A stretch of 64,000 nucleotides of DNA from Vulcanimicrobiota bacterium (GTDB lineage Bacteria; Vulcanimicrobiota; CADAWZ01; Ess09-12): contig JAVHLM010000003.1 of assembly GCA_031082125.1 (NCBI GenBank), positions 288,842-352,841 of the forward strand. Reading direction: 5' to 3'. The translations under genes were made by a program, and so were the position numbers. Positions 38,243 to 55,752 of this stretch are shown piece by piece. The notes beneath the pieces were generated by a model. The model saw only the letters and a program-made list of their open reading frames with translations. It was not told the DNA's origin and made no database searches. The number at the start of each line of letters is the position of its first letter. The first letter of the stretch is position 1.

Positions 38243-38530
38243 ATGTCTTTGGAAAAAGCGAAAGATGCGCTGAAGAAGATCATGAATGATCCGGACTTCA
38301 GCAGGAAGATGATCAATGTGAAGAGTGATCAGGAAGCGATAGAGCTCCTCTCTTCCCATGGCTTCAAGTTTACCAAGGAAGAATTCGAAAAGGCGAAGCA
38401 TGAGATGAGACAGGCTGTTATCAGCGACGCTGAGCTCGCAGGCGTGGCTGGAGGAAGCGACAGCTCCAACAAAACAGCTTATCCGGTTGCGAACAGTGTG
38501 ACAGTCGGAGCGGCGGCGGCTGCTTTCTAG
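38243..38530 (+). CDS. Nif11-type RiPP precursor peptide with Gly-Gly leader cleavage motif
   Basis: AGGAGG 7 nt before the ATG. Leader MSLEKAKDALKKIMNDPDFSRKMINVKSDQEAIELLSSHGFKFTKEEFEKAKHEM is a Nif11-family leader. ELAGVAGG is the double-glycine motif. Predicted core is SDSSNKTAYPVANSVTVGAAAAAF (24 aa). Confidence 0.8.
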   Translation: MSLEKAKDALKKIMNDPDFSRKMINVKSDQEAIELLSSHGFKFTKEEFEKAKHEMRQAVISDAELAGVAGGSDSSNKTAYPVANSVTVGAAAAAF

Positions 38531-38614
38531 AAGGCCATGAAGGGGCACACCGGCATCAGAGCGGTGTGCCCCTCATGAATTCCCATGAAGCCTTACAGGG
38601 CGGGAGGAATGTTC

Positions 38615-40009: not shown

Positions 40010-40024
40010 TGAAAGGAGGCTTTT

Positions 40025-41899: not shown

Positions 41900-43794
41900 T
41901 GAAGAAAGAAGCAGAGGTGCTCCTCATCAATCCCCCCTTCGCAGAGCCGCGGCCCTATATCAGCATCCCCACGCTTGTTTCATATCTTGAGTCCCGGGGC
42001 ATCCGCACCGCGGCATATGATCTCAACTGCGAGTTTTTCTACCGCTTTCTCACAAGGGAGAGGATCCGCAGGGGCATAGAATATGTTTCGGAGAGGTTCC
42101 TCGAGCTTAACGGCAGAGATGAGCTCGCCTTCAGGGAGATGCTTGAATACACGGTATGCTGCGATTTGCTCAGGGACATGGAGGAGCACCTGGGGAAGCT
42201 CACCCTGGCGCTCCTGCCTTTTTCAGATTTCCAGATACTCAGGAGCCTGGAGCTTGAGAGCCTGCTCAGCGGCCTCACGACAGCCCCCTATTTTCCCGAG
42301 CTCCTGATCTCGAAGCCCCAGTTCACTTATGCAAGCCCCTATTTCGAGTACTCCACGGCCGACATCGCGGAGAGCACGGGCCATGAGAGCTTTTATTCCG
42401 CCCTCTTAAGAGAGATAATCGCTGAAATACTCGACGAGTATGAGCCCAGGGTGGCGGGCATCTCAATAGTGCTCACAGAGCAGGTGGTGCCTGCTTTCCT
42501 TGCGGCACGCATCATCAAGGAGTTGAAGCCTGACCTTCATGTAACGGTCGGCGGGCCCTTTGTCTCCACTTATCTGAAGGATCTCAAGAACACGGTGCTC
42601 TTTGATTACGTGGACAGCCTGGTCTTTGACGAGGGTGAGCTCCCCCTCGAGCAGCTCGCCAGGGAGCTCGCGGGCACGAAGCCCGACCTCGGGAGAGTGC
42701 AGAACCTCGCATATCTGAAAAACGGGAGCCTTGTATCCACTCCCCCGGCAGAAACACTTCCTGCCGAGGCATCGCCTCCTCCCGACTACAGGGCCCTTCC
42801 CCTGGACAGGTATCTTGTCTCAGAAAGAAACGCCGAGATGCTCTTCAGGCTCTCGAAGGGATGCTCGTGGCACCGCTGCACCTTCTGCAGGACCGACATC
42901 GCGATGTGCCGGGAATACCGGCAGGCCCCTCATTCCTTCGTCTATGAGAGCCTGCTCGAGGTCATCAGGGACACGGGGTGCGGCAGGTTCCGCTTTACCA
43001 GCGAAGATTCTGACCCGCTGCTCCTTGAGCATATCTCGAAGAGGCTCCTGGAAGACGGCATATCCATAAAGTGGCGATGCCACGCACGCGTTGACGCGCG
43101 GTTCACCAGGGAGCGCGGCGAGCTCTACCGCAAGGCGGGGTGCACGAGCCTTTACCTCGGCGTGGAATCTTTCAGCGACAGGATCCTGCGCATGATGAAC
43201 AAGGGGATTACCTGCGGGCTCATTGACAGGGTCCTCACAGAGCTCGGCGGCGGCGTTCCCGTGCGCCTCTATATGATGGTGGGATTTCCGGGGGAGACTG
43301 AAGAAGAGGCGCTCGCCGGGTACGGGAAGGTGCGCTCCCTTCTTGAGCAAGGCCTTATCGGCGACTATAAGTACTCTATCTTCGAGATGCAGTCAGGATC
43401 AGAAGTGGGGGAGCACCCGGAGCGTTTCGGCCTCAGTGATCTTAGCCGTTACCCGCGCTCGGACCTGCCCTCTGAGATACTGGAGTTCGAAAGCAGAGGG
43501 ATGCCCAGGGAACGGGCTCTCATGCTGGCCGCAGAGTTCGAGAAAAACAGGAGAGAGTGGGATCCCCAGCTGGACAGGGTCTGTGAGCGCTATGAAGAGA
43601 CGGTTGAGCACGTCACTGTGAAGGGAGACCCCGTGGAGGTGAGGTTCAACGTCAAGGAGATACTGGAGAGAATGGCCCATTCCACGGGGCTCTATTTCCT
43701 CCCCCGGATCGGGGAATGGATACGGTACGGGGAACAGCATATCACCCCTGTCAGGGCTGCCCGCCGGGCGTCGCAGCCGCTCAGCACTGTATGA
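41899..43794 (+). CDS. B12-binding-domain radical SAM protein, paralog 2 of 3
   Basis: ATGA overlap with paralog 1. SKGCSWHRCTFCRTD. Collinear similarity to paralog 1 throughout (for example SPYYEFS/SPYFEYS, ESTGHESFYSA in both, YMMVGFPGET in both). Confidence 0.8.
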   Translation: MKKEAEVLLINPPFAEPRPYISIPTLVSYLESRGIRTAAYDLNCEFFYRFLTRERIRRGIEYVSERFLELNGRDELAFREMLEYTVCCDLLRDMEEHLGKLTLALLPFSDFQILRSLELESLLSGLTTAPYFPELLISKPQFTYASPYFEYSTADIAESTGHESFYSALLREIIAEILDEYEPRVAGISIVLTEQVVPAFLAARIIKELKPDLHVTVGGPFVSTYLKDLKNTVLFDYVDSLVFDEGELPLEQLARELAGTKPDLGRVQNLAYLKNGSLVSTPPAETLPAEASPPPDYRALPLDRYLVSERNAEMLFRLSKGCSWHRCTFCRTDIAMCREYRQAPHSFVYESLLEVIRDTGCGRFRFTSEDSDPLLLEHISKRLLEDGISIKWRCHARVDARFTRERGELYRKAGCTSLYLGVESFSDRILRMMNKGITCGLIDRVLTELGGGVPVRLYMMVGFPGETEEEALAGYGKVRSLLEQGLIGDYKYSIFEMQSGSEVGEHPERFGLSDLSRYPRSDLPSEILEFESRGMPRERALMLAAEFEKNRREWDPQLDRVCERYEETVEHVTVKGDPVEVRFNVKEILERMAHSTGLYFLPRIGEWIRYGEQHITPVRAARRASQPLSTV

Positions 43795-45629
43795 AAAAAC
43801 CTGTTGACGTGCTTCTCATCAATCCTCCCTTCTCAAGGCCCGATGAGCCTGTGATAGGCATCGCCACCCTCGCGGCATATCTCAAGACGAGGCAGATCAC
43901 TGTCGAGGCGAAAGATGCAAGCCTCGAGCTCTTTCGCAGAACAGTAACGAATGACTGCATCAATGAAGAGAGAGCCTATGCCGGAGAGAGGTTCACGGAG
44001 CTCAACGGCAGAAGCGTTCTCGACTTCTGCGGGATCTATGAGTACGTGAGGCTCTTTTCCCTGCTTCTGCGCCTGCAGGGGCTTCAGGGCATCTTTGATG
44101 ATGCCGGGGGGGATCTCTGGGAAAAGCTCAGGCATGCAAGCGACACGGTGAGGTCCTCGTTTCTCGAGCTTGCCACGGCATCGTTCTTTCCCCGCTTCAT
44201 ACTCTATGGAGGCCCGCCGACCTTCAGCTGCCACTCTCCTTACCACCACTTCTCCAAAGCCGACATACTCGCTTCCCTTGACGATCCCGCCTGGTACTCC
44301 GAGGCGCTCGAGAATACTATTGCACTGTACTTTGAGGAGATGAGCCCGCGGATCGCCGCAATCTCGGTGTCATACTTTAACCAGATTATTCCGGCCTTTC
44401 AGTGCGCCCGCATCATAAGAAGGATTGCGCCGGGTGTCCATATCAGCATGGGAGGATCGGCGGTCCAGATATTTTTTCGGAAGGTGAGGGATACCGGGCT
44501 CTTCGCCATTGTTGACACCATTGCCACCGGAGACGGCGAGGCGACGCTCGAGGCGCTCTCACGAGAGCTTCAGAGGAAGTCAGCCTCACTGGAGGCGGTG
44601 CCAGGAATCATCTACCTGTCAGGCACGATGGTGAAAAAAAATGACCCGGCGCCGCCCCTTCCTGTTGAAGGCCTCTCCCTCCCCGATTACAGGGCCTTCC
44701 CCCCGGAAGACTTCATGGCCGGCCCCGAGGCAATGCGCTTGCCCCTGAGGCTCTCGAAGGGGTGCTCCTGGGGCAGGTGCTCCTTCTGCCGGACCGAGCT
44801 TTCCATGATAAAAGCGTACCAGGCGCCGACGGCGGGGCGCCTCTTCCCGATGGTCACCGATTTCATCATTGCCACGGGGTGCCGGAAGATCCACTTTGCC
44901 GACGAGTCAATTGATCCCGAAGCCCTGGAGGAGATCTCGAAAGAGCTCATCGGCAGGGAACTCACCCTTGACTGGAACTTTCAGACGAGAATCAACAGAA
45001 AGATCACTGAGAGGCGCTGCAGGCTCTTCAGGGAGGCGGGATGCTCGGCCATCTCCTTCGGTGCAGAATCCTTCAGCGACAGGGTCCTTGGCCTGATGAG
45101 CAAGGGCATCACGGCAGAGCTCATAGAAAAGGTGCTCTATGAGGCCGGGAGCGTTCTGCCTGTCACCATCTTCATGATGGTGGGCTTCCCCGGCGAGACC
45201 GAAGAGGAAGCGAGGGAGAGCTTCAGGAAAGTCCGGGAGCTTGCCCGGGCAGGAGTGATCCGCGATTATATCTACTCCCCCTTCATTATCCACTCAGGCT
45301 CTGCAATGATGGCGGAGCCGGGGCGCTACGGCATCACCGAGCTGCACCACGGTCCTGGAGAAGACCTTTCACCTGATATCATCGATTATCAGTGCACCGG
45401 CATGGCAAGGGAAAAAGCCAGGGAGCTCTTCATCGAGTTTTCCCGGAGCCAGGCAGGCCGCCGGCCCTGGCCGCCGGAGGTCAGGATAGGAAAAAATACC
45501 GTTCCGCGGAGGTTTGACGTGGAAGAAATGATGGGGATCATTGCCCGGGAGACCTCCATGCGCCCTGCGATGCCCCTCTACCGCCTGATCATCACGGCAG
45601 AAGCGTCGCTTGCTCCTGAATCCATATGA
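43791..45629 (+). CDS. B12-binding-domain radical SAM protein, paralog 3 of 3
   Basis: ATGA overlap with paralog 2. SKGCSWGRCSFCRTE. The family block FMMVGFPGETEEEA is shared. Confidence 0.8.
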   Translation: MKKPVDVLLINPPFSRPDEPVIGIATLAAYLKTRQITVEAKDASLELFRRTVTNDCINEERAYAGERFTELNGRSVLDFCGIYEYVRLFSLLLRLQGLQGIFDDAGGDLWEKLRHASDTVRSSFLELATASFFPRFILYGGPPTFSCHSPYHHFSKADILASLDDPAWYSEALENTIALYFEEMSPRIAAISVSYFNQIIPAFQCARIIRRIAPGVHISMGGSAVQIFFRKVRDTGLFAIVDTIATGDGEATLEALSRELQRKSASLEAVPGIIYLSGTMVKKNDPAPPLPVEGLSLPDYRAFPPEDFMAGPEAMRLPLRLSKGCSWGRCSFCRTELSMIKAYQAPTAGRLFPMVTDFIIATGCRKIHFADESIDPEALEEISKELIGRELTLDWNFQTRINRKITERRCRLFREAGCSAISFGAESFSDRVLGLMSKGITAELIEKVLYEAGSVLPVTIFMMVGFPGETEEEARESFRKVRELARAGVIRDYIYSPFIIHSGSAMMAEPGRYGITELHHGPGEDLSPDIIDYQCTGMAREKARELFIEFSRSQAGRRPWPPEVRIGKNTVPRRFDVEEMMGIIARETSMRPAMPLYRLIITAEASLAPESI

Positions 45630-45645
45630 CAGGGAGGAGAAAAAC

Positions 45646-46746
45646 GTGTTCACAGAAAAGAGCCGCCTTTCCCTCAAGAGAACCATATACTCGGTGATGC
45701 TTGACGGCAAAGATCTCGTGCTTCTTTGCACCCCCTGCGAGCCCGTGGTGCTGAAGGAGCTCTCACCTTTCAGAAGGGAACTCCTCATTCTGCTTGACGG
45801 GAGGCGCACCGCGGGAGAGATCATGCAGGAGCTGAACGCGCGGGGCCATCGGTGCATTTTCAGCAAGGTGAGGGAAGAGCTTGATCGGCTCGATGAGTGG
45901 CTCCTTCTGGAAGAGGAGGGTGATGCTCCTTTGCCGGAGGATACAGAGCATGCGGGGCGTAACGACCGCACGCGCCTGTGGTTCGCCGCCAGGAGGACCT
46001 CAGGTGCCTCCTTTGCCCGCCAGGCAGAGAGAGATCTCCAGTCGGCCCATATCGTCCTCTTCGGCCTGGGAGGGCTGGGCTCGCAGCTCTTCACCCAGCT
46101 CCTGCTGACAGGCATCGGTGAGATCACCGCCGTTGACTGCGAGAAGGTGGAGGAGAGCAACCTGAACAGGCAGAGCCTCTTCTACGAGAGCAACGTGGGC
46201 CGCCTGAAGACGGAGGCTGCGGCGGAGCGGGCCCGGCTGATGAACAGCTCAGCATCCATTCATTTTGTGGATAAGAGAATCGCCTCGGCTGGAGACTTCG
46301 CCTCACTGATGGCCCCTGCGAGCCTGGCGCTCCTCGCCGCCGATACTCCCCGCGACATGATATTCGACTGGATGAACGAGGCCAGTTACACGACAGGCGT
46401 GCCGGTGCTCTACAGCAACGGTGTCCTCCAGTCCTCCATGGGGATCGGCCCGCTGGTGATCCCTGGCAGGACGGCGTGCTATCAGTGCTCGATGCCCGAA
46501 GGCGCCCGTTTTGAAGACCCCCTCGTGGAGCAGATCAACAGGCGGCACTGCCACGGGGTGATACTCCCTCCTCTTGCCATGTGCGCGGGTCTTATGGTGC
46601 TTGAGCTCGTGAGGCATCTCACTGGATGCGAACCCTGCCGGATTTATGACCGCAGGCTTCACATGGACTTCAGAAATTACCGGATGTGGTTCCAGGATAT
46701 AGAAAAGCGCCGGAGCTGCCCTTTCTGCGAACAGAGAGCGCCATGA
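45646..46746 (+). CDS. E1-like (ThiF/MoeB/HesA-family) protein with N-terminal PqqD-like RRE domain
   Basis: GGGAGGAG + 6 nt + GTG start. The N-terminal ~90 aa (YSVMLDGKDLVLL...ELLILLDGRRTAGEIMQELNARG) resemble RiPP recognition elements. E1 Rossmann motif IVLFGLGGLGSQLF...ITAVDCEKVEESNLNRQ. Paired CxxC zinc motifs (CYQC...CPFC). Confidence 0.75.
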   Translation: MFTEKSRLSLKRTIYSVMLDGKDLVLLCTPCEPVVLKELSPFRRELLILLDGRRTAGEIMQELNARGHRCIFSKVREELDRLDEWLLLEEEGDAPLPEDTEHAGRNDRTRLWFAARRTSGASFARQAERDLQSAHIVLFGLGGLGSQLFTQLLLTGIGEITAVDCEKVEESNLNRQSLFYESNVGRLKTEAAAERARLMNSSASIHFVDKRIASAGDFASLMAPASLALLAADTPRDMIFDWMNEASYTTGVPVLYSNGVLQSSMGIGPLVIPGRTACYQCSMPEGARFEDPLVEQINRRHCHGVILPPLAMCAGLMVLELVRHLTGCEPCRIYDRRLHMDFRNYRMWFQDIEKRRSCPFCEQRAP

Positions 46747-46807: not shown

Positions 46808-49711
46808 CTAGGTGAGCTGGCGGTCCGCCAGCTTCCTGAAGGTGCCCTCGACGCTCATGAGCTCTTTGAAGGTGCCTGCCTGCACGATCCTCCCTTTCTC
46901 CAGCACATAGATCCTGTCGGCCTTCACCACGGTGCTGAGCCTCTGTGCTATTACTATCTTTGTGGCCTTGAGAGTGAGAAGCTGTTCCGTCACCACGCTC
47001 TGGACCCTGTTGTCAAGAGAGCTCGTCGCTTCATCGAAGAGCAGTATTCTCGGCTTTTTCGCCAGGGCCCGGGCTATCAGGAGCCTCTGCTTCTGGCCTC
47101 CTGAGAAAGTCTGTTCCCCTTCCATGACCACGGTGTGCATTCCCATCGGCATGGCCTTGATATCCTGGTCTATGCCGGCTGTCCTTGCTGCCTCCCACGC
47201 GTCATCGAGGGAGAGCTCCACCGAGCCCGAGATGTTGGAAAAGATATCGCCGGCCATCAGCTCGCTTTTCTGCAGCACTGCTCCAATCTGGCTCCTCACG
47301 GCCGAGATGTCGAGGGTCCCGAGGTCTCTCCCGTCATAGTAAAGGGCCCCCTGCTCGGGCGCCTCAAAGCCGAGGAGGCACCTGAAAAGGGTTGATTTCC
47401 CTGATCCCGAGGGCCCCACGAAGGCAATAAACTCGCCGGGCTTCGCCTGGAAGGTGACGCTCTTCAGCACCATGGGACCGTCGGTCCTGTAACGGAAAGA
47501 GAGATTGCTCGCCTCCACGGCACCATGGAGCTCGCCGGGGTCAAGCTTCTCCTCGTCAACCTCCTGTAATGCCTCAAATATAGGCTTCATCCTGTCGTAG
47601 AGGGGAACGCTCCTTACGAGCTCCCCCGCAATGGCACCCAACTGGATCATGGCGGCAAGAAACCCGGTGAAGGCGGCGTTGAAAGCGAGAAAATTCCCCA
47701 GGCTCATGGAGGTCCCTCCGATGACCTCAGCGTTATGCTCCATGGTGGCGGCGAGAGCAAAAATTGCGCCTGCGGACAGGAGAGGGAGCATTGAGGTGAA
47801 GACCTCGAGACGGGCGCCCACAAGGCCGGCTTTATAGGAAAAGTTTTTCTGACGCGAGAACTTCCCGGCCCATTCTGAAAAAGCGAGAGCCTGTGCCCCT
47901 GCTATCTTTATCTTGCCGATCCCTTTCACAAGGTCAAAGACGAAGCCATAGAGCTGTCCCTGGATATTGATCTCTCTGCGGGCGAGGGAAAGCTGGAGAG
48001 AGCTGGCAAGAATAATCGCCGCGAGCAGTGCCAGGGCAAAGAGAGCGGCAGTTATTGCAAGACTGCTCTGATAATAGAAAAGGATCAGAAAGCTGAAGGA
48101 GGCATAGATCGCCCCCTGTATGGCCGGTAAGGCAAGGCCCTCGAAGAACTGGCTCATGATGGAGTCGAAGCCCAGGGAGCGCATGGCGAGATCACCTGAC
48201 GAGTACCTGTTGAAGAAAGCGCAGGGCAGGGCCATGAGCCGATCCCACAGGGCGCACTGGATGACGCCCTTGGCCGTTCCTTCCATCCTGAGAAAAGCAA
48301 CACCCTGGGTAAACTGAAAGACTGCCACCGCAAGAGAGCCCGCCAGAAGGGCCACGGAGAGCTGCACCAGGAGGGGCATCTCCCTTTCCGGGACTATCAA
48401 GTCAAAGATTATCCCCGTCGCCACAGGAATAAGCAGGCCGAATAACCCCATTGCCATCGCCACAAAAACCGATACCTTCATGTCGGATTTAAGCAGCGGC
48501 AGGCTGATGAGCAGGATATCCCGTAGGGAAAGAGGTTTATTGGGAAAGGGCCTGTAGAGCATGTAAGCCTTAGTATCAATGGAGGCGGCTCTCTCCCTGT
48601 CAACAGGAAACTCGGAAATTTCACCTGAAGCAACCCCCTTATAGCGTCCTTTACAAGGCAGAAGAGCCAGAGGCTTCCCCGATTCCTTGAGAAAACCGAC
48701 CATGGGCCCCCTTTCCCTCTTCCACCAATCACCTTCGAGGGTGACTCTCCGCGTCCTCACCTTTGACGCTCTTGAAATGGCCGAAAGAGAGAGGGGTGGA
48801 GCATTCTCCCCATGCGAAGCAGGAGGCTCTTTCAGCGTGAAATGCATATATTCAGCCACACGCCGGCAAGCGTTGAAAAGAGGCGATTCGCCGGAAGGCG
48901 CCTCCTCCCCGGGTGAGCCTGCCTTCTCCGTTGATGAGGCGAGATAATGGAGGGCTTTACTCAATACCTGGCCCTCATGCTGCCTCCTCTGCTCAATGGT
49001 CTCCGATTCCCTGCGCTCCTGCCCGTCCATCGAATGGCCGATGGCGCAGAGCACCGCCCTGTGAAACGCGCTGAGCCCGGCAAGCTCCCGGTCTTCCGCG
49101 ACGTAGTGGGCGGTAGTCAATGACTTCAGCCTTGAGGGCTCGCGGCATGATGCCCATCCAAGGCGGGAGAGGGGGAAGTATGAGCCGGAAAGGGCGCATG
49201 GCTCTCCATCGATGCCCATAAATGCCGAGGCCCCTTCCCGGTGTGAGATCCACAGGACGGGAGCGAGTGAGCTGATGGCGTCATCCTTCTCAGCGAGGTA
49301 CTCTTCACCTTCGGTGAGAAGCCTCAGCTTTCTTGGAAGTGATGCCGTTCTGAGAAGCCCCCTCGAAAGCGCCTCGATCCATCGGTCAGCAAGAGGGACA
49401 AGCTCCGCGCCAACTGCTGAGATACTTGTCTCTTGGAGCTCTGTCCCGTTTTCGCCCACGGCGAGGAGTGCGATGCCCTGAAAGGGCTCGAAACCGAAGA
49501 GAGCCTCATCCTTCTCAATTGTGCAGACATAATGACGGTATGAGGCCGCGCCGCCATGCCTCACGGCAAAGATATTGACACGGTTTTTCCTCACTATCCA
49601 GACAGACCCCGTTCCTTCGGCAAAAAAAGGCTCATTTCCGCCGACGGCTCTTCTGCCTTCAGGTCTGTTGCTCTCGTTTCTGCCGTCTCCTTCCATGCTC
49701 CGCTCCCTCAA
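46808..49711 (-). CDS. ABC transporter permease/ATP-binding protein with ~420-aa N-terminal cytoplasmic extension (NHLM/Nif11 bacteriocin-export type, non-peptidase subunit)
   Basis: C-terminal half has six TM helices and an NBD (Walker A GPSGSGKST, signature FSGGQKQRL, Walker B ILLFDEAT). The N-terminal 420 aa have no C39 Cys/His motif and no recognised domain. Confidence 0.75.
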   Translation of the reverse strand: MRERSMEGDGRNESNRPEGRRAVGGNEPFFAEGTGSVWIVRKNRVNIFAVRHGGAASYRHYVCTIEKDEALFGFEPFQGIALLAVGENGTELQETSISAVGAELVPLADRWIEALSRGLLRTASLPRKLRLLTEGEEYLAEKDDAISSLAPVLWISHREGASAFMGIDGEPCALSGSYFPLSRLGWASCREPSRLKSLTTAHYVAEDRELAGLSAFHRAVLCAIGHSMDGQERRESETIEQRRQHEGQVLSKALHYLASSTEKAGSPGEEAPSGESPLFNACRRVAEYMHFTLKEPPASHGENAPPLSLSAISRASKVRTRRVTLEGDWWKRERGPMVGFLKESGKPLALLPCKGRYKGVASGEISEFPVDRERAASIDTKAYMLYRPFPNKPLSLRDILLISLPLLKSDMKVSVFVAMAMGLFGLLIPVATGIIFDLIVPEREMPLLVQLSVALLAGSLAVAVFQFTQGVAFLRMEGTAKGVIQCALWDRLMALPCAFFNRYSSGDLAMRSLGFDSIMSQFFEGLALPAIQGAIYASFSFLILFYYQSSLAITAALFALALLAAIILASSLQLSLARREINIQGQLYGFVFDLVKGIGKIKIAGAQALAFSEWAGKFSRQKNFSYKAGLVGARLEVFTSMLPLLSAGAIFALAATMEHNAEVIGGTSMSLGNFLAFNAAFTGFLAAMIQLGAIAGELVRSVPLYDRMKPIFEALQEVDEEKLDPGELHGAVEASNLSFRYRTDGPMVLKSVTFQAKPGEFIAFVGPSGSGKSTLFRCLLGFEAPEQGALYYDGRDLGTLDISAVRSQIGAVLQKSELMAGDIFSNISGSVELSLDDAWEAARTAGIDQDIKAMPMGMHTVVMEGEQTFSGGQKQRLLIARALAKKPRILLFDEATSSLDNRVQSVVTEQLLTLKATKIVIAQRLSTVVKADRIYVLEKGRIVQAGTFKELMSVEGTFRKLADRQLT

Positions 49712-49715
49712 TTAC

Positions 49716-51914
49716 TCACATCTCTATCAGGTTTCTGTAAAGTCCCTCTTCCTTGATGAGGGACTCATGGGTCCCTCTCTGCGCGACCTTGCCGCCGTCG
49801 AGGACGACGATCTCGTCACAGTCCCTTATGGTGCTCAGCCTGTGGGCAATGATGACGGTGGTGCAGCCTCTTCTTCTCAGGTTGCCGTCAATGGCGAGCT
49901 CCGTGAGGGGGTCCAGTGCGCTTGTAGCCTCGTCAAGGACTATGATGCGGGGGTTCGTGACGAGAGCCCGCGCGATCTCCAGTCTCTGGCGCTGCCCGCC
50001 GCTGAAGTTTCTCCCCCCTTCCTCGACGAGGCTTTCATACCCGGACTCCCTCTCGTTGATGTCGTCGTGGATGGAGGCGTCCTTTGCCGCCAGTACGATG
50101 TCGGTTTCCTCTACGGCGGTCTCCCAGAGTGTCAGATTCTCCCTGATGGTGCCCTCGAAGAGCATGATGGTCTGATCCACCTGCGAGAGGCTGCTCTTCA
50201 GGATACCTGCCGGGACCTCTGCGAGAGGCTTGCCGTCAAAGAGCACCTCTCCCTGCCAGGGGGCGTAGAGGCCGCAGAGTATCTTTGAGACCGTCGATTT
50301 CCCGCTGCCTGACGGGCCTATGATGGCAACCCTCGAGCCGGGAGAGAGGGAAAGGCTGAAGCCCTGGAGGAGGGGCGGGTCAAAAGGGCCGTATCCGAAG
50401 GTAATGTCCCTCAGCTCGACAGTCCCTTCAAGTTTTCCGGCCCTGGCCGCGCCATCACCGTTGGTCTTACCGGGCACTTCCCCTTCATCGCTCTCCCGGC
50501 GGCCCGGCAGAGCGCCTTTCACTTTGTAGCGGAACACGTCATCAATCCTGCTTATGGTGCCCTCAATCTCCTGGATGCTCGCGCCGAGGTTCACCAGGTT
50601 ATTGATGGGAGTCACGAAGAGGGCCATAAGGCTCTGGTATGCCACAAGGGACCCTATGGTCATCTTGCCGTTCATCACCATGAGGCTTCCCAGAATCAGT
50701 ATGATGACGTTTCCCAGCGATGAGAGTGACGCAGGCAGGATGGAGAGCGCAGATGTCAGGAAATTGAGCTCCTGCTCGCCGTTTATCACCCTTGTGAAAA
50801 TCCCGGCCCACCGGGAGAAGAAATCCGACTCAGTGCCGCTCGCCTTGAGGGTCTCTATGTAGCGGAGCCCGGAGATTGACGTTCCGACGAGCTTGCCACG
50901 GTCGTTGAGAAGCCTCAGGTTCCCATGGACCCTTCTGTCTGAGACATATTTAAGGGCCACGAAATTGAGGGCCGTGAGAAAGAGGCAGATGGCCGTGAGG
51001 CGCGCGCTGTAGAGAAAGAGGATGACAAGGTAGAAGAGGGCAAGAAACACATTCAGGATCGTGACGGAGAGCTGGTTGGAAAGGAGCTGGGCTATCCTGT
51101 CGTTGAGGGAGACCCTCGAGACGATGTCGCCGGCGAAGCGTTGCTCGAAAAACTCTACAGGAAGCCTGAGGAGGCGCCAGAGGTACTTGCCGGACTCGCT
51201 GACCGAGAGGTGCGTTTCCAGCCTCAGCAGGCAGAACCTCTGCAGCCACGTGAGGAATCCCCGGAGCACTGCGATGATGAGCATTGCCGTTACCAGGGGA
51301 AAAAGCATGGTCTCGACGCCGCCTGAAAAGATACCATCTATGAATATCTTGGTGAAGAGAGGGACTGCCATGCCGGGCAGCACCAGGGCAAGTCCCGCGA
51401 GGAGGGCGAAGAAAAGGGCTTTCCGCGAGCCCCCCACCCTTGTGTTCAGGCTGTCGATAATGGTCCTTCTGCTCCCCTCTCTCCTGAAGTCCGGCCCCGG
51501 CTTGAAGGTGAGCACCACGCCGGTGAATGAGTCGCTGAATTCCTGAGGGGACACCTTTCTCGGTCCGAAGGCGGGATCGTTGATATAAAACCACTCCCTG
51601 CTGAAGCCTTCGACAACCACGAAGTGATTGAAATTCCAGAAGACGATGAGAGGAAATTCCTGCCCGCAGAGCTCGTCAATATCGAGACTTAAAGCCTCGG
51701 TGACAAGACCATACTCCCGTGCGGTCTTCACTATGTTGAGGGCTTTGCTCCCGTTGCGCGTCACGCCGCATTCTATTCTCAGCTTTTCAAGAGGCACATT
51801 TCTGCCGTAGAAGGAGAGCACGATGCCCAGCGCCGCCGCCCCGCATTCAAGGGCTTCCATCTGGAGCACTGTCGGTGTCTTTACTCTCCGGGAGCGTTTT
51901 TTTTCAGCGTTCAT
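49716..51914 (-). CDS. bacteriocin-processing ABC transporter with N-terminal C39 cysteine peptidase domain (SunT/LagD-like)
   Basis: N-terminal C39 domain TVLQMEALECGAAALGIVLSFYG (catalytic Cys) ...FNHFVVVEG (His). Six TM helices. NBD (GPSGSGKST, FSGGQRQRL, IIVLDEAT). Confidence 0.85.
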   Translation of the reverse strand: MNAEKKRSRRVKTPTVLQMEALECGAAALGIVLSFYGRNVPLEKLRIECGVTRNGSKALNIVKTAREYGLVTEALSLDIDELCGQEFPLIVFWNFNHFVVVEGFSREWFYINDPAFGPRKVSPQEFSDSFTGVVLTFKPGPDFRREGSRRTIIDSLNTRVGGSRKALFFALLAGLALVLPGMAVPLFTKIFIDGIFSGGVETMLFPLVTAMLIIAVLRGFLTWLQRFCLLRLETHLSVSESGKYLWRLLRLPVEFFEQRFAGDIVSRVSLNDRIAQLLSNQLSVTILNVFLALFYLVILFLYSARLTAICLFLTALNFVALKYVSDRRVHGNLRLLNDRGKLVGTSISGLRYIETLKASGTESDFFSRWAGIFTRVINGEQELNFLTSALSILPASLSSLGNVIILILGSLMVMNGKMTIGSLVAYQSLMALFVTPINNLVNLGASIQEIEGTISRIDDVFRYKVKGALPGRRESDEGEVPGKTNGDGAARAGKLEGTVELRDITFGYGPFDPPLLQGFSLSLSPGSRVAIIGPSGSGKSTVSKILCGLYAPWQGEVLFDGKPLAEVPAGILKSSLSQVDQTIMLFEGTIRENLTLWETAVEETDIVLAAKDASIHDDINERESGYESLVEEGGRNFSGGQRQRLEIARALVTNPRIIVLDEATSALDPLTELAIDGNLRRRGCTTVIIAHRLSTIRDCDEIVVLDGGKVAQRGTHESLIKEEGLYRNLIEM

Positions 51915-51917
51915 GCA

Positions 51918-52742
51918 CTAAAACCTGACTGGAAGCATGAGGGAGAGCGGCGTCACCGTTTTCAAGATAACGGTGGCGGAGCAGGGAGTGACATTGCTGA
52001 TCTTGATGGCGGGCCCCCTGCCTGACGACCACTTGTAGCCGCTCACGGTGGAGGCATCCCTGGTGGGGATGGCGCGGATTCCGATCTTCGGGGTTCCTTT
52101 CAGGCAGATCTCTGCCAGGGTCTCATTATGGACTTTCCTCATCACCTCGGCCCTGGTGACAGGAAACTCCGTGATGCCGGCGACCTTCCCGTAAATGAAG
52201 CCGAAGTCCTGCCTGTTCACCGTCGAGGGGGATATCAGAATGTCCATGCCGGGCGTTACAAGCTTTCCGTTCTCCATTGAAATGAAAATGACGGCATCTA
52301 TTTCTGAAGTTTCGGCCTGAACGGTCCCGAAGGTTTCTTCCTGCCTTATGAAGTTACCCTCGTCAAAAGGGAGCGATACGAGAATTCCCGTCATGGGGCT
52401 TTTGATTTCGAAGGCATCGCCGCCGGAGGAATCGGTCCTTCGCACCCTTGCGAGCACCTGGTCCCTTGTAACCCGATCTCCCTGCTTCACCGGCAGGCAT
52501 TCTATGGTTCCTGCCAGGCCGGCGATGATTCCTTTCATTTCCCCCATGCCCAGCAGCATTCCCTCTCCGCTTATGGTGATGGGAATTCTTCCAAAAATCA
52601 GCCACAGGATCGCGAAGAGTATAAGGACCCCTGAGGCGGCGAGGGCAAGCCACCCCCTGGAGCTTACAATGGTGACGCACTGGTCGAGCTGCTCCGGCGA
52701 GGTGAGCTTCTGTAAGGCCTCTTTCCTGTATATCTCCCTCAT
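51918..52742 (-). CDS. HlyD-family membrane-fusion/secretion protein (bacteriocin export accessory)
   Basis: MREIYRKEALQKLTSPEQLDQ then a single TM helix and a beta-barrel/lipoyl-like periplasmic domain. It lies immediately upstream of and is co-oriented with the two ABC genes. Confidence 0.75.
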   Translation of the reverse strand: MREIYRKEALQKLTSPEQLDQCVTIVSSRGWLALAASGVLILFAILWLIFGRIPITISGEGMLLGMGEMKGIIAGLAGTIECLPVKQGDRVTRDQVLARVRRTDSSGGDAFEIKSPMTGILVSLPFDEGNFIRQEETFGTVQAETSEIDAVIFISMENGKLVTPGMDILISPSTVNRQDFGFIYGKVAGITEFPVTRAEVMRKVHNETLAEICLKGTPKIGIRAIPTRDASTVSGYKWSSGRGPAIKISNVTPCSATVILKTVTPLSLMLPVRF

Positions 52743-52910: not shown

Positions 52911-54398
52911 CTAAAACAGGTCCTTCGCCTCCACAATTTCAATGTCTCCGGTGGTAAGGCCTGGATCATATTTCAGCACCTGCTCATCTACCTTCCGTTC
53001 ATCTTCAGGGAGCGCGCTCTTATACACGGGGCGTGCGTCGATTTTTCCCAGCAGCCGGCCTTTGAGGGTCTCCGGGTCGTCGGTGACAAATACCATCTTT
53101 ACCTTCCGGTCGGCAAGCCTTCTTCCAAGGGCCGAAGATACCTCGCCGGCGGTTATCTTCTTCATCCTCTCCCCGATGGAGGCTATGAAATACGGAATAT
53201 GATAAAAATCGGAATCCATTGAAAATCCAAGTTTCTGGAAGGGGTCATAGTCCCAGAGCTTTGAGTTGTAGGTCACGAAATCCCTCATTATCCTGAAATC
53301 CTTCTCAGAGAGGCCCTTTTCGGCCATCTGATTGAATTGATAGAGCGCATATCTGGCGGCGAAACAGGCATTCTCATTGCTGAGGCTTCTGAGCCATATG
53401 GAGAAGTACTGCCGCAAGCGGGGGATCCTTACGCCGGGCATCTTGTCCTGGCCGCCTTCCCTGAATTTTTCAAGGTAGGAATAATCGCCGTAGTTGAAGC
53501 CGCGGACCTTGCGAAGCTCGCGGCTGAGCAGGCAGTTGAGATAGCGGTGCTGCCCGAAGTGCGCATTGGTAATCATGAGCGGATAGAAATCATCATCGGC
53601 GCGGGTGAAGTCAACGGGGAATCCCAGGGCTACGTCACAGGCGTCGCCATCTTTCCTGATGATCAGCACCCTGTTTCTTTCGATGGGCTCCGGGGTACCT
53701 ATGGCTTTCATTTCAGGCTTTCCCGGCGGAAGCGCGTCGAGATCGCTCATCACCTGCTTTTTTATCATGCCGCATTCACGGCCGGCTACGCCTAGCTCGT
53801 AATTCTCCTTTGTATAGCGCGAGGCGAAAAAAGAGGTCACCTCCCGGACGGTGAGAGCCGCGAGAGATTTCTCCGTGCCTGAATCGGGTGTCCCATAGGG
53901 GTGGCCTCTGTAGATGAAGCGCTCCAGAGCCGCCTGGGCCAGGCTTTCACCATGCCTGGAGATATGGTCGCGGTGGTTCGCGGCCTGGGCCAGGGCACGC
54001 TGAAGCGAGTCTGCGTTTATACGGGGCGAGGTAATTCCTGCAATAAAAACAGGATAGACCTCATTGAACTTTTCCCTGTGGGCTTTGAAGAAAAAAGTGG
54101 TGATCTCTTTGTCAGCCTGCGCGGAGAATGATGCTCCCGATGCCGGCGCCTTTTCGTTGATCGCCCTGTCTATCTGTTCCTCAATCAATCGGGTGGTGAC
54201 ATAATTCAGGCCCTCTTTCCCTTCGGGATCATTGACGGCTCCGGTGCGGAACGAGAGCACGACATACACGACCTCCGAGCCCGGGAGTGCCAGCGTGGTA
54301 ATGCCGGTATTCTTCTCCTTATCAAGCTCAATGGCATTTGTCGGTAAGGTGAGAGCGAGAATAAAGACCAGCACGATGCAGAATCTACTCATGAGCAT
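52911..54398 (-). CDS. M16-family peptidase-like protein lacking the HxxEH motif (probable non-catalytic partner subunit), secreted
   Basis: Signal peptide. Pitrilysin-like two-domain architecture but no HxxEH zinc-binding motif. Overlaps the upstream M16 gene by 14 nt. Confidence 0.6.
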   Translation of the reverse strand: MLMSRFCIVLVFILALTLPTNAIELDKEKNTGITTLALPGSEVVYVVLSFRTGAVNDPEGKEGLNYVTTRLIEEQIDRAINEKAPASGASFSAQADKEITTFFFKAHREKFNEVYPVFIAGITSPRINADSLQRALAQAANHRDHISRHGESLAQAALERFIYRGHPYGTPDSGTEKSLAALTVREVTSFFASRYTKENYELGVAGRECGMIKKQVMSDLDALPPGKPEMKAIGTPEPIERNRVLIIRKDGDACDVALGFPVDFTRADDDFYPLMITNAHFGQHRYLNCLLSRELRKVRGFNYGDYSYLEKFREGGQDKMPGVRIPRLRQYFSIWLRSLSNENACFAARYALYQFNQMAEKGLSEKDFRIMRDFVTYNSKLWDYDPFQKLGFSMDSDFYHIPYFIASIGERMKKITAGEVSSALGRRLADRKVKMVFVTDDPETLKGRLLGKIDARPVYKSALPEDERKVDEQVLKYDPGLTTGDIEIVEAKDLF

Positions 54399-55752
54399 CC
54401 TTCCCTTCGGTGAGCGTCACCACGATCCGGTTCTTTTCCGCAAAGTATTTCTCCGCGGCGGCCTTGATTTCTGAAGGCTTCACCCTGAAGTAGTTGTCAT
54501 AATAGAGATGAGCCGCCCGGGTATTTCCTGAAAGAAAGTACGGTCTCGCGTACGTAAAGGCGATCCTGTTCAGTGAATCAAGGTTCGTGAGGGTTTCGAA
54601 GCGCCTTTTCTCTTTTATCTGCCGCAGTTTTTCCGGATCGCAGGGATTTTTTCTGACGGAGTCAACCTCCTGGAAGAAGATCTCCTTTGCCTTCTCTATA
54701 TCCTTTTTATCTTTCAGCTTCATAATGGTGGTAAACAGGCCCGGGTCGCGGGTAGAGCAGCTGCCCGGGAAATCGACAGTGGTCGCGATCTTCTCCTCGT
54801 ACACCAGGCGCTTGTAAAGGGGGGAGCTTTCCGAGAAGGAGAGCTCCTGGATGAGGTCAATGGCAGGGATCTCGATATTCTGAGGATCATAGCCGGGAAT
54901 ATGGTAGGAGATCGAGAGATACGGAGAGGTCTTTCCGGGATAGAGGATGTCTGCCCTTCTTTCGGCGCCCTGGGGCGGCTCAGGGGGAACCTCGGGAAGA
55001 TCTTTGCCACACTTGAGCGACCCGTAATTCTGCCTTATTATCTCTCTCACTTTCTTCTCATCGATATCTCCCGCCACCACGAGCCGGCAGTGATTCGGCT
55101 TATAATAGTCACGGTAAAACTTCATCACCCTTTCGCGGTTTTCGGGCATTTTCTTCAGGGTATCAAGATGCTCCGGCATATCCCTGTATGGGTGGATGGT
55201 ATAGGCGATCTGATAGAGCTTGCTGTCAAGCATGCTCAGGGGCATACGGTAATGCCCCAGGTACTCCCCCAGCACCGCTCCTGTCTCCGCTCTGTATTGA
55301 TCGTCAGGTATCACGAGGCTGCTGAGCTTGTCCGTCATTATCTCGGTAAGCCTCCTGAAGGCCTCCCGGGGAAATATCCTGTAATAACAGGTATAGTCAC
55401 TGGCGGTATAACCCTGTGAATAGACGCCATACTGTGCATAGTATTCATCAACTTTCTCGACCGGATAGTGCTCCGAGTCGCGAAACATCAGGTGCTCCAT
55501 CAGGTGGGTGTACTCGATCTCCTCAGGCTTCTTTTCAGAGCGCATCCCCACATCGAAGGCCAGGAAGTCCATCATCACCCCGTCATCTCCGCACTTTATG
55601 AGCACGACTTCCATACCGTTATCGAGCCTGTAGGACTCCACCGGGAAAGAGAACAGTTCGGCATAAGCGGGAGCAGTGACAAGCAAGCAGATCAAAAATA
55701 GCAGGCCCCCATGGAGAAATTTCCTCATAGTACCTCCTTTCACTGAACTCAA
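54385..55752 (-). CDS. M16-family zinc peptidase (active subunit, inverted zincin HxxEH)
   Basis: Signal peptide. HLMEHLMF (HxxEH) and downstream E in ...GASAFTSWDYTCYY-like context (YTASDYTCYY). Confidence 0.7.
   Translation of the reverse strand: MSSVKGGTMRKFLHGGLLFLICLLVTAPAYAELFSFPVESYRLDNGMEVVLIKCGDDGVMMDFLAFDVGMRSEKKPEEIEYTHLMEHLMFRDSEHYPVEKVDEYYAQYGVYSQGYTASDYTCYYRIFPREAFRRLTEIMTDKLSSLVIPDDQYRAETGAVLGEYLGHYRMPLSMLDSKLYQIAYTIHPYRDMPEHLDTLKKMPENRERVMKFYRDYYKPNHCRLVVAGDIDEKKVREIIRQNYGSLKCGKDLPEVPPEPPQGAERRADILYPGKTSPYLSISYHIPGYDPQNIEIPAIDLIQELSFSESSPLYKRLVYEEKIATTVDFPGSCSTRDPGLFTTIMKLKDKKDIEKAKEIFFQEVDSVRKNPCDPEKLRQIKEKRRFETLTNLDSLNRIAFTYARPYFLSGNTRAAHLYYDNYFRVKPSEIKAAAEKYFAEKNRIVVTLTEGKDAHE

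What the first reader, a model, noticed from the sequence alone, without database searches (positions are those of the whole stretch)
46808..52742. Convergent export operon: HlyD, C39-peptidase ABC transporter, and second ABC with a 420-aa unknown N-terminal domain
The three genes match the tripartite transporter found with Nif11/NHLP leader peptides (peptidase-ABC, non-peptidase ABC, HlyD). The C39 domain (QMEALECGAAALG...H) predicts cleavage after the GG in ELAGVAGG. The second ABC protein has a 420-aa cytoplasmic N-terminal extension with no motif I can recognise. It could be a degenerate peptidase or a regulatory/cargo-recognition domain.
Basis: partly seen in the sequence, partly recalled or inferred. 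Interest (0 to 1): 0.55.

Follow-up and report, generated by a model that had tools for sequence, protein, structure and literature searches.

The report
Standard Nif11/NHLP peptide export system
These three genes are an ordinary member of the known three-part transporter that cuts the leader off Nif11/NHLP-type modified peptides and exports them, and the "unknown" 420-residue front end of the second pump is a standard, widely conserved part of that family.

Summary
Three tightly packed minus-strand genes (51918-52742, 49716-51914, 46808-49711) each score above NCBI's curated cut-off for the NHLP/Nif11 bacteriocin export trio: TIGR03794, TIGR03796 and TIGR03797. They converge on a YcaO/TfuA/B12-radical-SAM operon that holds one Nif11-leader precursor ending ...ELAGVAGG|SDSS.

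The C39 domain is intact. Gln18, Cys24, His97 and Asp113 align with the LahT150 catalytic residues (E 1e-43). The leader has Val-4, Leu-7 and Ile-12, the LahT pocket positions.

The 420-residue N-terminus of the second ABC protein is not peculiar to this window. It recurs in over 1000 protein clusters (50% identity), mostly at the N-terminus of 950-1000-residue proteins. Full-length relatives are named [quoted passage not shown]. An AlphaFold model (pLDDT 89) shows two cyclic-nucleotide-binding-like barrels (Foldseek hits to PKA-R and PKG), a long helix, and an alpha/beta domain where the paralogue has C39. Homology of that last domain to C39 is unproven.

Two local variants stand out. The HlyD protein (274 aa) lacks the roughly 150-residue helical hairpin, as in Chloroflexota, Acidimicrobiia and one Bacillota relative that have no adjacent outer-membrane gene. 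The H-loop His of ABC2 is Gln.

This is a new member of a known kind, of low interest.

The parts
51918..52742 (-). HlyD-like membrane-fusion/adaptor protein (274 aa) of the NHLP bacteriocin system. It keeps the N-terminal membrane anchor, the lipoyl-like halves and the beta-barrel region. It lacks the alpha-helical hairpin of about 150 residues.
   Evidence: TIGR03794 scores 218 bits against a cut-off of 156.2, but in two stretches; residues 110-271 match profile positions 253-417 of 421. In a MAFFT alignment with 416-462-aa relatives, one clean block is missing.
49716..51914 (-). ABC1: peptidase-containing ABC transporter (732 aa), made of a C39 peptidase, a transmembrane domain and a nucleotide-binding domain.
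   Evidence: TIGR03796 scores 1013.7 bits against a cut-off of 853.3 over the whole model. Pfam finds C39, ABC_membrane and ABC_tran. It aligns full-length to PCAT1 (4ry2), E 4e-94.
51492..51878 (-). C39 double-glycine peptidase domain of ABC1 (residues 13-141), with Gln18, Cys24, His97 and Asp113.
   Evidence: PF03412, E 4e-34. LahT150 (6mpz), E 1.1e-43, with QMEALECGAA, NFNHFVV and YINDPA conserved. The LahT catalytic residues are Gln21, Cys27, His101 and Asp117 (PMC6363468).
46808..49711 (-). ABC2: the second ABC transporter subunit, without a peptidase (967 aa from the TTG; probably 962 aa from the ATG at 49696). The H-loop reads AQRLST, with Gln instead of His.
   Evidence: TIGR03797 scores 823.8 bits against a cut-off of 709.4; residues 276-966 match profile positions 2-686. 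Homologues of 950-980 aa covering 97-98% of the protein carry the NCBI name NHLP bacteriocin export ABC transporter permease/ATPase subunit. H-loop comparison.
48929..49654 (-). ABC2 residues about 20-261: two cyclic-nucleotide-binding-like beta-barrel domains (20-119 and 130-206), followed by a long helix (211-261).
   Evidence: AlphaFold model built on 42 sequences, mean pLDDT 89.1. Foldseek against the PDB gives 42 hits at E<=1e-3, almost all tandem CNB regions of PKA regulatory subunits and PKG, best 1.1e-6. Weak sequence hints point the same way: cNMP_binding E 0.033 in 2 of 42 relatives, and a Crp/Fnr protein (2gau) at E 0.63.
48527..48883 (-). ABC2 residues 277-395: an alpha/beta domain directly before the first transmembrane helix, in the position the C39 domain occupies in ABC1. 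It may be a degenerate C39-like domain. In the relatives Cys282 is kept in 85%, and the position where His would fall is Pro in 96%.
   Evidence: Covered by the TIGR03797 model. Secondary-structure order. Column statistics. hhalign against C39 gives 112 co-linear columns with P 0.026, but 3 of 30 shuffled decoys score as high.
38243..38530 (+). The presumed cargo: a Nif11-leader RiPP precursor (95 aa) with a predicted cut after Gly71 (...ISDAELAGVAGG|SDSSNKTAYPVANSVTVGAAAAAF). It is the only copy in the window.
   Evidence: TIGR03798 scores 54.3 bits against a cut-off of 32.3; PF07862. Coordinates and single-copy status.
52911..55752 (-). Two M16 (insulinase-type) peptidase genes directly upstream on the same strand, possibly co-transcribed. 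Both products have signal-peptide-like N-termini. Only the upstream one (54385-55752) has HxxEH. Their association with the exporter is inferred, not shown.
   Evidence: Pfam M16 and M16_C hits. Motif and N-termini. An M16 gene also lies near the transporter in L002.

Best explanation
This is a canonical NHLM-type (nitrile-hydratase/Nif11 leader) RiPP maturation and export cassette, in a version without any outer-membrane partner gene in the window.

Shown:
- The three products are members of TIGR03794, TIGR03796 and TIGR03797.
- They lie next to a Nif11-leader precursor and its modification enzymes.
- The C39 domain of ABC1 has an intact catalytic set.

Inferred mechanism: after the core has been modified by the YcaO/TfuA/B12-rSAM enzymes, the C39 domain of ABC1 binds the C-terminal part of the leader (Val-4, Leu-7, Ile-12). 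It cuts after Gly-Gly, and the 24-residue modified core is passed through the membrane domains using ATP.

ABC1 and ABC2 most likely work together as a heterodimer. One arm would carry the active peptidase. The other would carry a non-catalytic cytoplasmic module: a tandem CNB-like pair plus an alpha/beta domain at the C39 position. That module either docks the long folded Nif11/NHLP leader or senses a small ligand that gates export.

The short HlyD protein keeps its membrane anchor, lipoyl and barrel parts. It lacks the hairpin that in related systems accompanies a TolC-like gene, which fits export across a single membrane.

The 420-residue N-terminal region is a standard family feature, not a novelty of this locus.
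For: - All three proteins score above the curated equivalog cut-offs.
- The gene order HlyD, then ABC1 with C39, then ABC2 recurs in 57 loci fetched from many phyla. The genes here are 3-4 bases apart.
- The C39 catalytic residues align with LahT150, ComA and PCAT1. [quoted passage not shown] The window's leader has V-4, L-7 and I-12.
- The precursor is TIGR03798.
- The N-terminal region occurs in 1949 clusters at E<=1e-3 and 1038 at E<=1e-10, mostly at the N-terminus of 950-1000-aa proteins. These carry the family name.
- The fold comes from a pLDDT 89 model plus Foldseek hits to tandem CNB proteins.
- In the HlyD survey, 410-447 aa goes with an adjacent OEP gene. Proteins of 269-290 aa without one occur in Anaerolineae, Thermoflexales, Acidimicrobiia and a Bacillota MAG. 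No OEP homologue was found in the window.
- The three-gene cassette and its link to NHLP/Nif11 precursors were described by Haft et al. 2010 (PMC2887384).
Against: - Nothing here is experimental. Cleavage, transport and heterodimer formation are all inferred.
- In relatives both nucleotide-binding domains carry complete motifs, so separate homodimers are not excluded.
- Short-form ABC2 genes in cyanobacteria often lack an adjacent ABC1.
- The CNB-like barrels do not reach Pfam significance. They have Leu-Leu-Ala where cAMP/cGMP binders have Arg-Ser/Thr-Ala (by-eye placement), so a cyclic-nucleotide ligand is unlikely and the ligand is unknown.
- Homology of the third domain to C39 is not statistically supported.
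- The rule that a short HlyD means a single membrane is imperfect. Peptococcaceae, Pelotomaculum and Desulfosporosinus relatives have 439-469-aa forms, and two cyanobacterial MAG loci (L031 Crinalium; L033 unnamed) pair a 232-aa form with a nearby OEP gene.
- The host organism of the window was not identified.
Confidence: 0.8

Rival explanations
1. ABC1 and ABC2 are two independent homodimeric pumps. ABC1 alone processes and exports the peptide. ABC2 does something else, such as producer immunity or export of a different cargo, and its N-terminal sensor controls that activity.
For: In relatives both proteins have complete Walker A, Q-loop, signature, Walker B and H-loop motifs; ABC2 has the H-loop His in 73 of 78 sequences. 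So there is no family-wide degenerate site of the kind typical of obligate heterodimers. Several cyanobacterial loci have a short ABC2, with or without HlyD, but no adjacent ABC1. PCAT1, ComA and LahT-type transporters work as homodimers.
Against: ABC1 and ABC2 are adjacent and in the same order in 57 fetched loci across phyla, and are nearly contiguous or overlapping here. Haft et al. found all three families co-distributed with the precursors. The single HlyD gene would have to serve two pumps.
Confidence: 0.25
2. The N-terminal tandem CNB-like module of ABC2 is a small-molecule (nucleotide alarmone) sensor that gates export, as proposed for HetC. It is not a docking site for the leader.
For: Structural similarity to tandem CNB regulators. 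HetC of Nostoc has a CNB domain fused to a C39-ABC transporter; that domain binds ppGpp in vitro and is needed in vivo (PMC10986499). Free-standing cNMP_binding genes lie next to the cassette in L001 and L003.
Against: The phosphate-binding-cassette Arg is absent, and no Pfam hit reaches significance. HetC's domain sits on the peptidase-bearing subunit and is single, not tandem. There are no ligand data.
Confidence: 0.3
3. Residues 277-395 of ABC2 are not a decayed C39 peptidase but an unrelated alpha/beta domain that happens to sit in front of the membrane domain.
For: The hhalign score of 17.8 is matched or exceeded by 3 of 30 column-shuffled decoys. A profile search of the PDB finds no C39 or CLD entry. 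Only 1 of 42 relatives touches PF03412, at E 0.26. No C39 structure appears in the top 50 Foldseek hits.
Against: The domain has the same position relative to the first transmembrane helix as C39 in the paralogue. Its order of helices and strands is co-linear over 112 aligned columns. The relatives keep a Cys six residues after an Asp/Gln position, and a Y-x-x-x-D-P motif that resembles the YINDP of C39. The HMMER alignment of ABC1 to TIGR03797 runs back to residue 105, inside its C39 domain. The Foldseek list was dominated by the two CNB barrels, so the test was not clean.
Confidence: 0.35
4. The genes encode a generic multidrug or lipid exporter that merely lies next to the RiPP operon.
For: ABCB1, MsbA and similar proteins give strong E-values through the shared ABC core.
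Against: Every such model scores far below its own curated cut-off (for example MsbA 252.7 and 305.7 bits against 602). The three NHLM models pass theirs. The presence of a C39 domain, a GG-leader precursor and the conserved three-gene order all argue against this.
Confidence: 0.02

Closest known systems
NHLM/NHLP-Nif11 three-gene transport cassette (TIGR03794 HlyD-like, TIGR03796 ABC with peptidase, TIGR03797 ABC without peptidase; Haft et al. 2010, PMC2887384)
   Same: All three proteins pass the curated cut-offs. The gene order is the same as in 57 fetched loci. A TIGR03798 Nif11-leader precursor and RiPP enzymes lie next to them.
   Different: The HlyD component lacks about 150 model positions, the hairpin. 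No outer-membrane-factor gene is present. The ABC2 H-loop His is Gln, a change seen only here and in the nearest relatives. The companion chemistry here is YcaO/TfuA plus B12-rSAM rather than the TOMM or LanM clusters of the 2010 paper.
LahT / LahT150 (PDB 6mpz), PCAT1 (4ry2), ComA (8hf4): peptidase-containing ABC transporters
   Same: The C39 domain matches LahT150 at E 1e-43 with the same catalytic Gln/Cys/His/Asp. ABC1 aligns end to end with PCAT1. The leader has the V-4/L-7/hydrophobic-12 pattern.
   Different: Those transporters are single-gene homodimers with two identical peptidase arms. Here a second, peptidase-less paralogue with a 400-residue cytoplasmic module, plus an adaptor protein, are encoded alongside.
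HetC of Nostoc PCC 7120 (CNB domain + C39 + ABC; PMC10986499)
   Same: A CNB-type domain is fused N-terminally to a bacteriocin-type ABC exporter, and it is proposed to regulate export.
   Different: HetC has a single CNB domain that Pfam recognises, located on the catalytically active subunit. Here there are two barrels that fall below Pfam significance, located on the non-peptidase subunit and followed by a long helix.
HlyB-type C39-like domain (CLD) of type I secretion ABC transporters
   Same: A non-catalytic N-terminal domain sits at the C39 position and is thought to recruit substrate (PMC6363468).
   Different: Published work describes the CLD as lacking the catalytic Cys. The ABC2 domain keeps a Cys in 85% of relatives and has Pro where His would align. 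Homology was not demonstrated here.

Membership tests
TIGR03797 NHLP bacteriocin export ABC transporter permease/ATPase subunit | Whole-protein score above the curated cut-off (709.4 bits), with the model covered end to end | tested here: met
   823.8 bits; residues 276-966 match profile positions 2-686 of 686.
TIGR03797 NHLP bacteriocin export ABC transporter permease/ATPase subunit | No functional C39 peptidase domain | tested here: met
   No PF03412 hit, even at E<=10. The position where His would align is Pro in 96% of relatives.
TIGR03796 NHLP family bacteriocin export ABC transporter peptidase/permease/ATPase subunit | Score above the curated cut-off (853.3 bits), with C39, membrane and ATPase domains | tested here: met
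   1013.7 bits over model positions 1-710. Pfam finds C39, ABC_membrane and ABC_tran.
Peptidase C39 (double-glycine bacteriocin-processing peptidases) | Catalytic Cys and His (plus Asp and the oxyanion Gln) present in alignment to solved structures | tested here: met
   Gln18, Cys24, His97 and Asp113 align with LahT Gln21, Cys27, His101 and Asp117.
Peptidase C39 (double-glycine bacteriocin-processing peptidases) | Proteolytic cleavage of the cognate leader after Gly-Gly | not testable with these tools
   Needs an in vitro assay. Only the motif fit was checked: V-4, L-7, I-12 and GG.
TIGR03794 NHLP bacteriocin system secretion protein (HlyD-like) | Score above the curated cut-off (156.2 bits) | tested here: met
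   218 bits.
TIGR03794 NHLP bacteriocin system secretion protein (HlyD-like) | Full-length architecture, including the central alpha-helical hairpin of HlyD-type adaptors | tested here: not met
   The match is split. Residues 110-271 match profile positions 253-417, so about 150 positions are absent. The same gap appears in the alignment with 416-462-aa relatives.
NHLM three-component cassette (Haft 2010) | The three transport genes are clustered and associated with an NHLP or Nif11 leader precursor | tested here: met
   The genes are contiguous. A TIGR03798 precursor lies 8.3 kb away in the converging operon.
Gram-negative type I secretion system (ABC + MFP + TolC-like OMF) | An outer-membrane factor gene or partner | tested here: not met
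   phmmer with two OEP proteins from related loci finds nothing in the 64-kb window. An OMF encoded elsewhere in the genome cannot be excluded.
Cyclic nucleotide-binding domain (PF00027) | A significant match to the family profile | tested here: not met
   No hit for the window protein at E<=10. The best among 42 relatives is E 0.033.
Cyclic nucleotide-binding domain (PF00027) | CNB fold (eight-stranded beta-barrel with flanking helices) | tested here: met
   A model with pLDDT 89. Foldseek gives E down to 1.1e-6 and probability about 1.0 to tandem CNB regions of PKA-R and PKG.
Cyclic nucleotide-binding domain (PF00027) | Phosphate-binding cassette with the conserved Arg-Ser/Thr-Ala | tested here: not met
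   The corresponding columns are Leu82-Leu83-Ala84 across 139 relatives. The equivalence was placed by eye from the conserved FG73 and the alignment.
C39-like domain (CLD) of ABC exporters | Detectable homology or fold similarity to C39 | tested here: inconclusive
   hhalign gives 112 columns with P 0.026, but 3 of 30 decoys score as high.

The most novel reading that the evidence does not exclude
The family-wide N-terminal module of ABC2 (two CNB-like barrels without a phosphate-binding Arg, a long helix, and an alpha/beta domain that keeps a Cys but has Pro at the His position) could be the dedicated receptor for the unusually long, folded Nif11/NHLP leaders. That would make this cassette an asymmetric heterodimeric PCAT, in which one arm recognises the leader and the other cuts it. 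If so, it would explain why these leaders are 70-80 residues long and why they co-distribute with this particular transporter. The hairpin-less HlyD would then be a minimal adaptor for single-membrane hosts.
Probability: 0.3. Interest if true: 0.5.

Novelty: new member of a known kind. Interest (0 to 1): 0.22.

Why it matters
As a locus it mainly confirms that the neighbouring YcaO/TfuA/B12-rSAM operon makes an exported, leader-cleaved peptide, and it fixes the predicted core as SDSSNKTAYPVANSVTVGAAAAAF. More broadly, no search here turned up a solved structure, a Pfam model or a paper for the first 275 residues of the second ABC subunit, although the region recurs in over a thousand protein clusters. 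A fold assignment (tandem CNB-like plus a possible pseudo-peptidase) gives a testable idea of how long Nif11/NHLP leaders are recognised or how export is gated. Short HlyD forms were usually found without a neighbouring outer-membrane gene; with exceptions noted, this may help in reading such cassettes.

Tried and rejected
- Sequence searches with ABC2 residues 1-277, 278-410 or 1-410 alone found nothing in Pfam at E<=10 or in PDB sequences at E<=10. A word-indexed homologue search with the N-terminus found only two weak hits.
- Folding the N-terminus from a single sequence gave a useless model, pLDDT 34.
- A profile search of the PDB with 42 N-terminal regions gave only a Crp/Fnr protein at E 0.63.
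- A Foldseek search against the viral BFVD library returned only cupin- and Crp-like or low-probability hits and no C39.
- hhalign in global mode produced a meaningless 4-column alignment. In local mode it gave P 0.026, which I do not accept as evidence after the decoy test.
- hhalign of barrel 1 against barrel 2 was weak (P 0.018) and poorly aligned, so an internal duplication is not shown by sequence.
- The idea that ABC2 has a family-wide degenerate ATP site, as obligate heterodimers often do, was rejected. The H-loop Gln is confined to this window and two other sequences; the closest homologue, P0003, has the same motif.
- The first genome-collection scans failed: the alignment was too divergent, and the single-protein patterns were too specific. 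A trimmed 8-sequence alignment worked.
- An exact-sequence look-up of ABC1 found no public contig, and megablast against plasmids found nothing, so the source organism stays unidentified.
- No tRNA genes are present. Promoter and terminator scans were at chance level.
- A test of whether long-form ABC2 goes with recognisable NHLP/Nif11 precursors gave 13 of 47 loci against 2 of 34. Detection sensitivity is low and the comparison is confounded by phylogeny, so I draw no conclusion.

Full report
**1. What is in the sequence**

The minus strand carries three closely spaced ORFs: 51918-52742 (274 aa), 49716-51914 (732 aa) and 46808-49711 (967 aa). The gaps between them are 3 and 4 bases.

The listed start of the last ORF is a TTG. 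An ATG five codons downstream (49696) is preceded by GAGGGAG and gives 962 aa, the length of the closest homologue, so it is the likelier start.

The plus-strand gene upstream of this block ends at 46746, so the two operons converge with 61 bases between the stops. I found no convincing terminator there, and promoter and terminator scans of the region were at chance level.

**2. Family assignment**

Each protein passes the curated whole-protein cut-off of one NCBIfam equivalog model:

| Protein | Model | Score (bits) | Cut-off (bits) |
|---|---|---|---|
| 967 aa | TIGR03797 | 823.8 | 709.4 |
| 732 aa | TIGR03796 | 1013.7 | 853.3 |
| 274 aa | TIGR03794 | 218 | 156.2 |

Models for MsbA, HlyB, CydCD, SmdAB and similar proteins match through the shared ABC core but fall far below their own cut-offs.

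These three families are the cassette that Haft et al. found co-distributed with NHLP and Nif11 leader peptides (PMC2887384).

The converging plus-strand operon encodes:
- a YcaO protein;
- one 95-aa Nif11-leader precursor at 38243-38530 (TIGR03798, 54.3 bits against a cut-off of 32.3);
- a TfuA fusion;
- three B12-radical-SAM methyltransferase paralogues;
- a ThiF-like protein.

**3. The peptidase**

The N-terminal 150 residues of the 732-aa protein match PF03412 (E 4e-34) and the solved LahT150 domain (6mpz, E 1.1e-43). The QMEALECGAA, NFNHFVV and YINDPA blocks are identical or nearly so.

By that alignment Gln18, Cys24, His97 and Asp113 correspond to the LahT residues Gln21, Cys27, His101 and Asp117 (PMC6363468). 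The whole protein aligns end to end with PCAT1.

[quoted passage not shown] The window's leader ends ...I(-12)SDAEL(-7)AGV(-4)AGG. Cleavage after Gly71 is therefore well founded as a prediction, though untested. It would release SDSSNKTAYPVANSVTVGAAAAAF.

**4. The "unknown" 420 residues**

TIGR03797 already covers residues 276-966, so only residues 1-275 lie outside the model.

Alone, the region hits nothing in Pfam or in PDB sequences. An exhaustive HMMER search of 1.84 billion cluster representatives told a different story: 1949 proteins at E<=1e-3 and 1038 at E<=1e-10. Most are 950-1000 aa, with the match at their N-terminus.

Full-length relatives covering 97-98% of the query are named [quoted passage not shown] by NCBI. 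The region is thus the normal architecture of a large branch of the family.

With a 42-sequence alignment, AlphaFold gave a confident model (mean pLDDT 89.1) with these parts:
- a beta-barrel with a following helix (about 20-119);
- a second barrel (130-206);
- a 50-residue helix (211-261);
- a disordered linker;
- an alpha/beta domain (277-395);
- the first transmembrane helix (396-419).

Foldseek against the PDB returned 42 hits at E<=1e-3, almost all tandem cyclic-nucleotide-binding regions of PKA regulatory subunits and PKG. The best was 1.1e-6, with probability about 1.0 over 220-250 aligned columns; bicupins ranked lower. TM-scores are low because the two barrels are oriented differently and the query is 420 residues long.

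Weak sequence signals agree: cNMP_binding at E 0.033 in 2 of 42 relatives, and a Crp/Fnr protein at E 0.63.

The columns that I place at the phosphate-binding Arg-Ser/Thr-Ala are Leu-Leu-Ala across 139 relatives. I therefore call the module CNB-like and do not predict cAMP or cGMP binding.

**5. The third domain (277-395)**

This domain occupies the place that C39 occupies in the paralogue.

Points in favour of C39 ancestry:
- The order of helices and strands is co-linear with C39 over 112 hhalign columns.
- Relatives keep a Cys (85%) six residues after an Asp/Gln position, and a Y-x-x-x-D-P motif reminiscent of YINDP. The window's own protein has Ala-Ser in place of Asp-Pro.
- HMMER's alignment of ABC1 to TIGR03797 extends back to residue 105, inside its C39 domain.

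Points against:
- The hhalign score of 17.8 is reached by 3 of 30 column-shuffled decoys.
- Profile searches do not find C39.
- The Foldseek list was monopolised by the barrels.

I rate C39 ancestry as likely but unproven. Where His would align, 96% of relatives have Pro, so the domain is not a peptidase in any case.

**6. Context in other genomes**

I fetched 80 loci from GTDB species representatives using a motif from the third domain, plus four loci by exact protein look-up.

An ORF and phmmer survey shows the order (OEP)-HlyD-ABC1(C39)-ABC2 in 57 loci. They come from Acidobacteriota, Nitrospirota, proteobacteria, Cyanobacteria, Bacillota, Chloroflexota, Actinomycetota and others.

ABC2 occurs in two forms:
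- a long form with both barrels plus the third domain plus the ABC core, about 950-1000 aa, as here;
- a short form with the third domain plus the ABC core, about 680-750 aa, mostly cyanobacterial and sometimes without an adjacent ABC1.

A few relatives add FHA domains in front.

**7. The short HlyD**

The TIGR03794 match is split; residues 110-271 match profile positions 253-417.

An alignment with relatives shows that the window's protein lacks one block of about 150 residues. It keeps the membrane anchor, both lipoyl-like halves and the C-terminal barrel region. From its position and what is generally known of HlyD-type adaptors, the missing block is the helical hairpin; I did not test this directly.

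The length pattern across the loci:

| HlyD length | OEP gene | Where found |
|---|---|---|
| 410-447 aa | adjacent | e.g. Acidobacteriota, Nitrospirota, proteobacteria |
| 269-290 aa | none adjacent | Anaerolineae and Thermoflexales (273-274 aa), Acidimicrobiia, a Bacillota MAG |
| 439-469 aa | none adjacent | Peptococcaceae, Pelotomaculum, Desulfosporosinus |
| 232 aa | nearby | two cyanobacterial MAG loci (L031 Crinalium; L033 unnamed) |

The last two rows show that the pattern is not absolute. The window has no OEP homologue. I infer, without proof, that the host has a single membrane or at least that this system does not dock on a TolC-like channel.

**8. ATPase motifs**

Both proteins have canonical Walker A, Q-loop, signature and Walker B motifs.

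The window's ABC2 has Gln in place of the H-loop His (AQRLST). That is true of only 3 of 78 ABC2 sequences compared; the closest homologue, P0003, carries the same AQRLST motif.

This is therefore a lineage-specific change that probably weakens one ATP site. It is not a family hallmark of an obligate heterodimer.

**9. How it most likely works**

Shown: family membership, an intact peptidase, a GG-leader cargo gene nearby, a conserved gene order, and the fold of the N-terminal module.

Inferred: the C39 arm of ABC1 cuts the modified precursor after GG, and the core is exported. ABC1 and ABC2 act together, most simply as a heterodimer with one catalytic arm and one non-catalytic arm. The CNB-like module on ABC2 either docks the long folded leader or senses a ligand. 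For the second option, HetC of Nostoc is a precedent: a CNB domain on a C39-ABC exporter that binds ppGpp (PMC10986499).

The two signal-peptide-bearing M16 peptidase genes just upstream (one with HxxEH, one without) may trim the exported peptide. That is only a guess from adjacency.

**10. Verdict**

The locus is an ordinary member of a family described in 2010.

The only local peculiarities are the hairpin-less adaptor, which is shared with other lineages, and the H-loop Gln.

Among the solved structures, Pfam and NCBIfam models and papers I searched, none describes the N-terminal module of this family, and a targeted structural study would be worthwhile. That is a property of the family, not of this window.

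Noticed in passing
window 36943-46746 (+): A RiPP operon with YcaO, a single Nif11-leader precursor (core SDSSNKTAYPVANSVTVGAAAAAF, no Cys), TfuA, three paralogous B12-radical-SAM methyltransferases (624, 653 and 637 aa) and a ThiF-like protein. Together these suggest a thioamidated, multiply C-methylated peptide, chemistry reminiscent of McrA modifications and proteusins.
   Followed up: partly
window 38585-40009 (+): The TfuA-related protein is 474 aa, but the TfuA model covers only residues 12-224. The C-terminal 250 or so residues have no family hit.
   Followed up: no
window 52911-55752 (-): Two M16 (insulinase-type) peptidase genes overlap by 14 bases and end 168 bases before hlyD. Both products have signal-peptide-like N-termini. 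Only the upstream one has the HxxEH zinc motif (HLMEH). An M16 gene also lies near the transporter in L002.
   Followed up: partly
window 46808-49711 (-), ABC2 residues about 918-925: The H-loop reads AQRLST (Gln instead of the conserved His). Among 78 ABC2 sequences compared, 73 have His; the closest homologue, P0003, carries the same AQRLST motif.
   Followed up: yes
window 10707-12122 (-), 19950-21356 (-), 61893-63197 (-): Three further radical-SAM genes: a SPASM peptide maturase resembling PapB and nif11-peptide maturases (below cut-off), a B12-binding radical-SAM enzyme, and another radical-SAM/SPASM protein. The window may hold more than one RiPP system.
   Followed up: no
window 31084-34509 (+): A 1141-aa protein with many TPR repeats and a C-terminal CHAT (caspase-like) domain, two genes upstream of the RiPP operon.
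   Followed up: no
P0166, P0169, P0170; L067 7078-10980; L082 7117-10980: Some ABC2 relatives (about 1220-1300 aa) carry additional N-terminal FHA domains in front of the CNB-like module. This hints at phospho-dependent regulation of export in those lineages.
   Followed up: no
L001 5176-6858; L003 11832-12419: Free-standing proteins with genuine Pfam cNMP_binding domains are encoded right next to the transporter cassette in a Bacillota MAG and a Terriglobales MAG.
   Followed up: no
L012, L014, L026, L029, L030, L035, L044, L070-L077: Cyanobacterial short-form ABC2 genes (third domain plus ABC core, about 700-900 aa) often have no adjacent C39-bearing ABC1 within the fetched flanks. Not all members of this family are paired.
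   Followed up: partly
L031 4986-5684 and L033 5938-6636: Two cyanobacterial MAG loci (L031 Crinalium; L033 unnamed) pair a very short HlyD (232 aa) with an OEP gene downstream on the opposite strand. This is an exception to the pattern in which a short HlyD has no outer-membrane partner.
   Followed up: no
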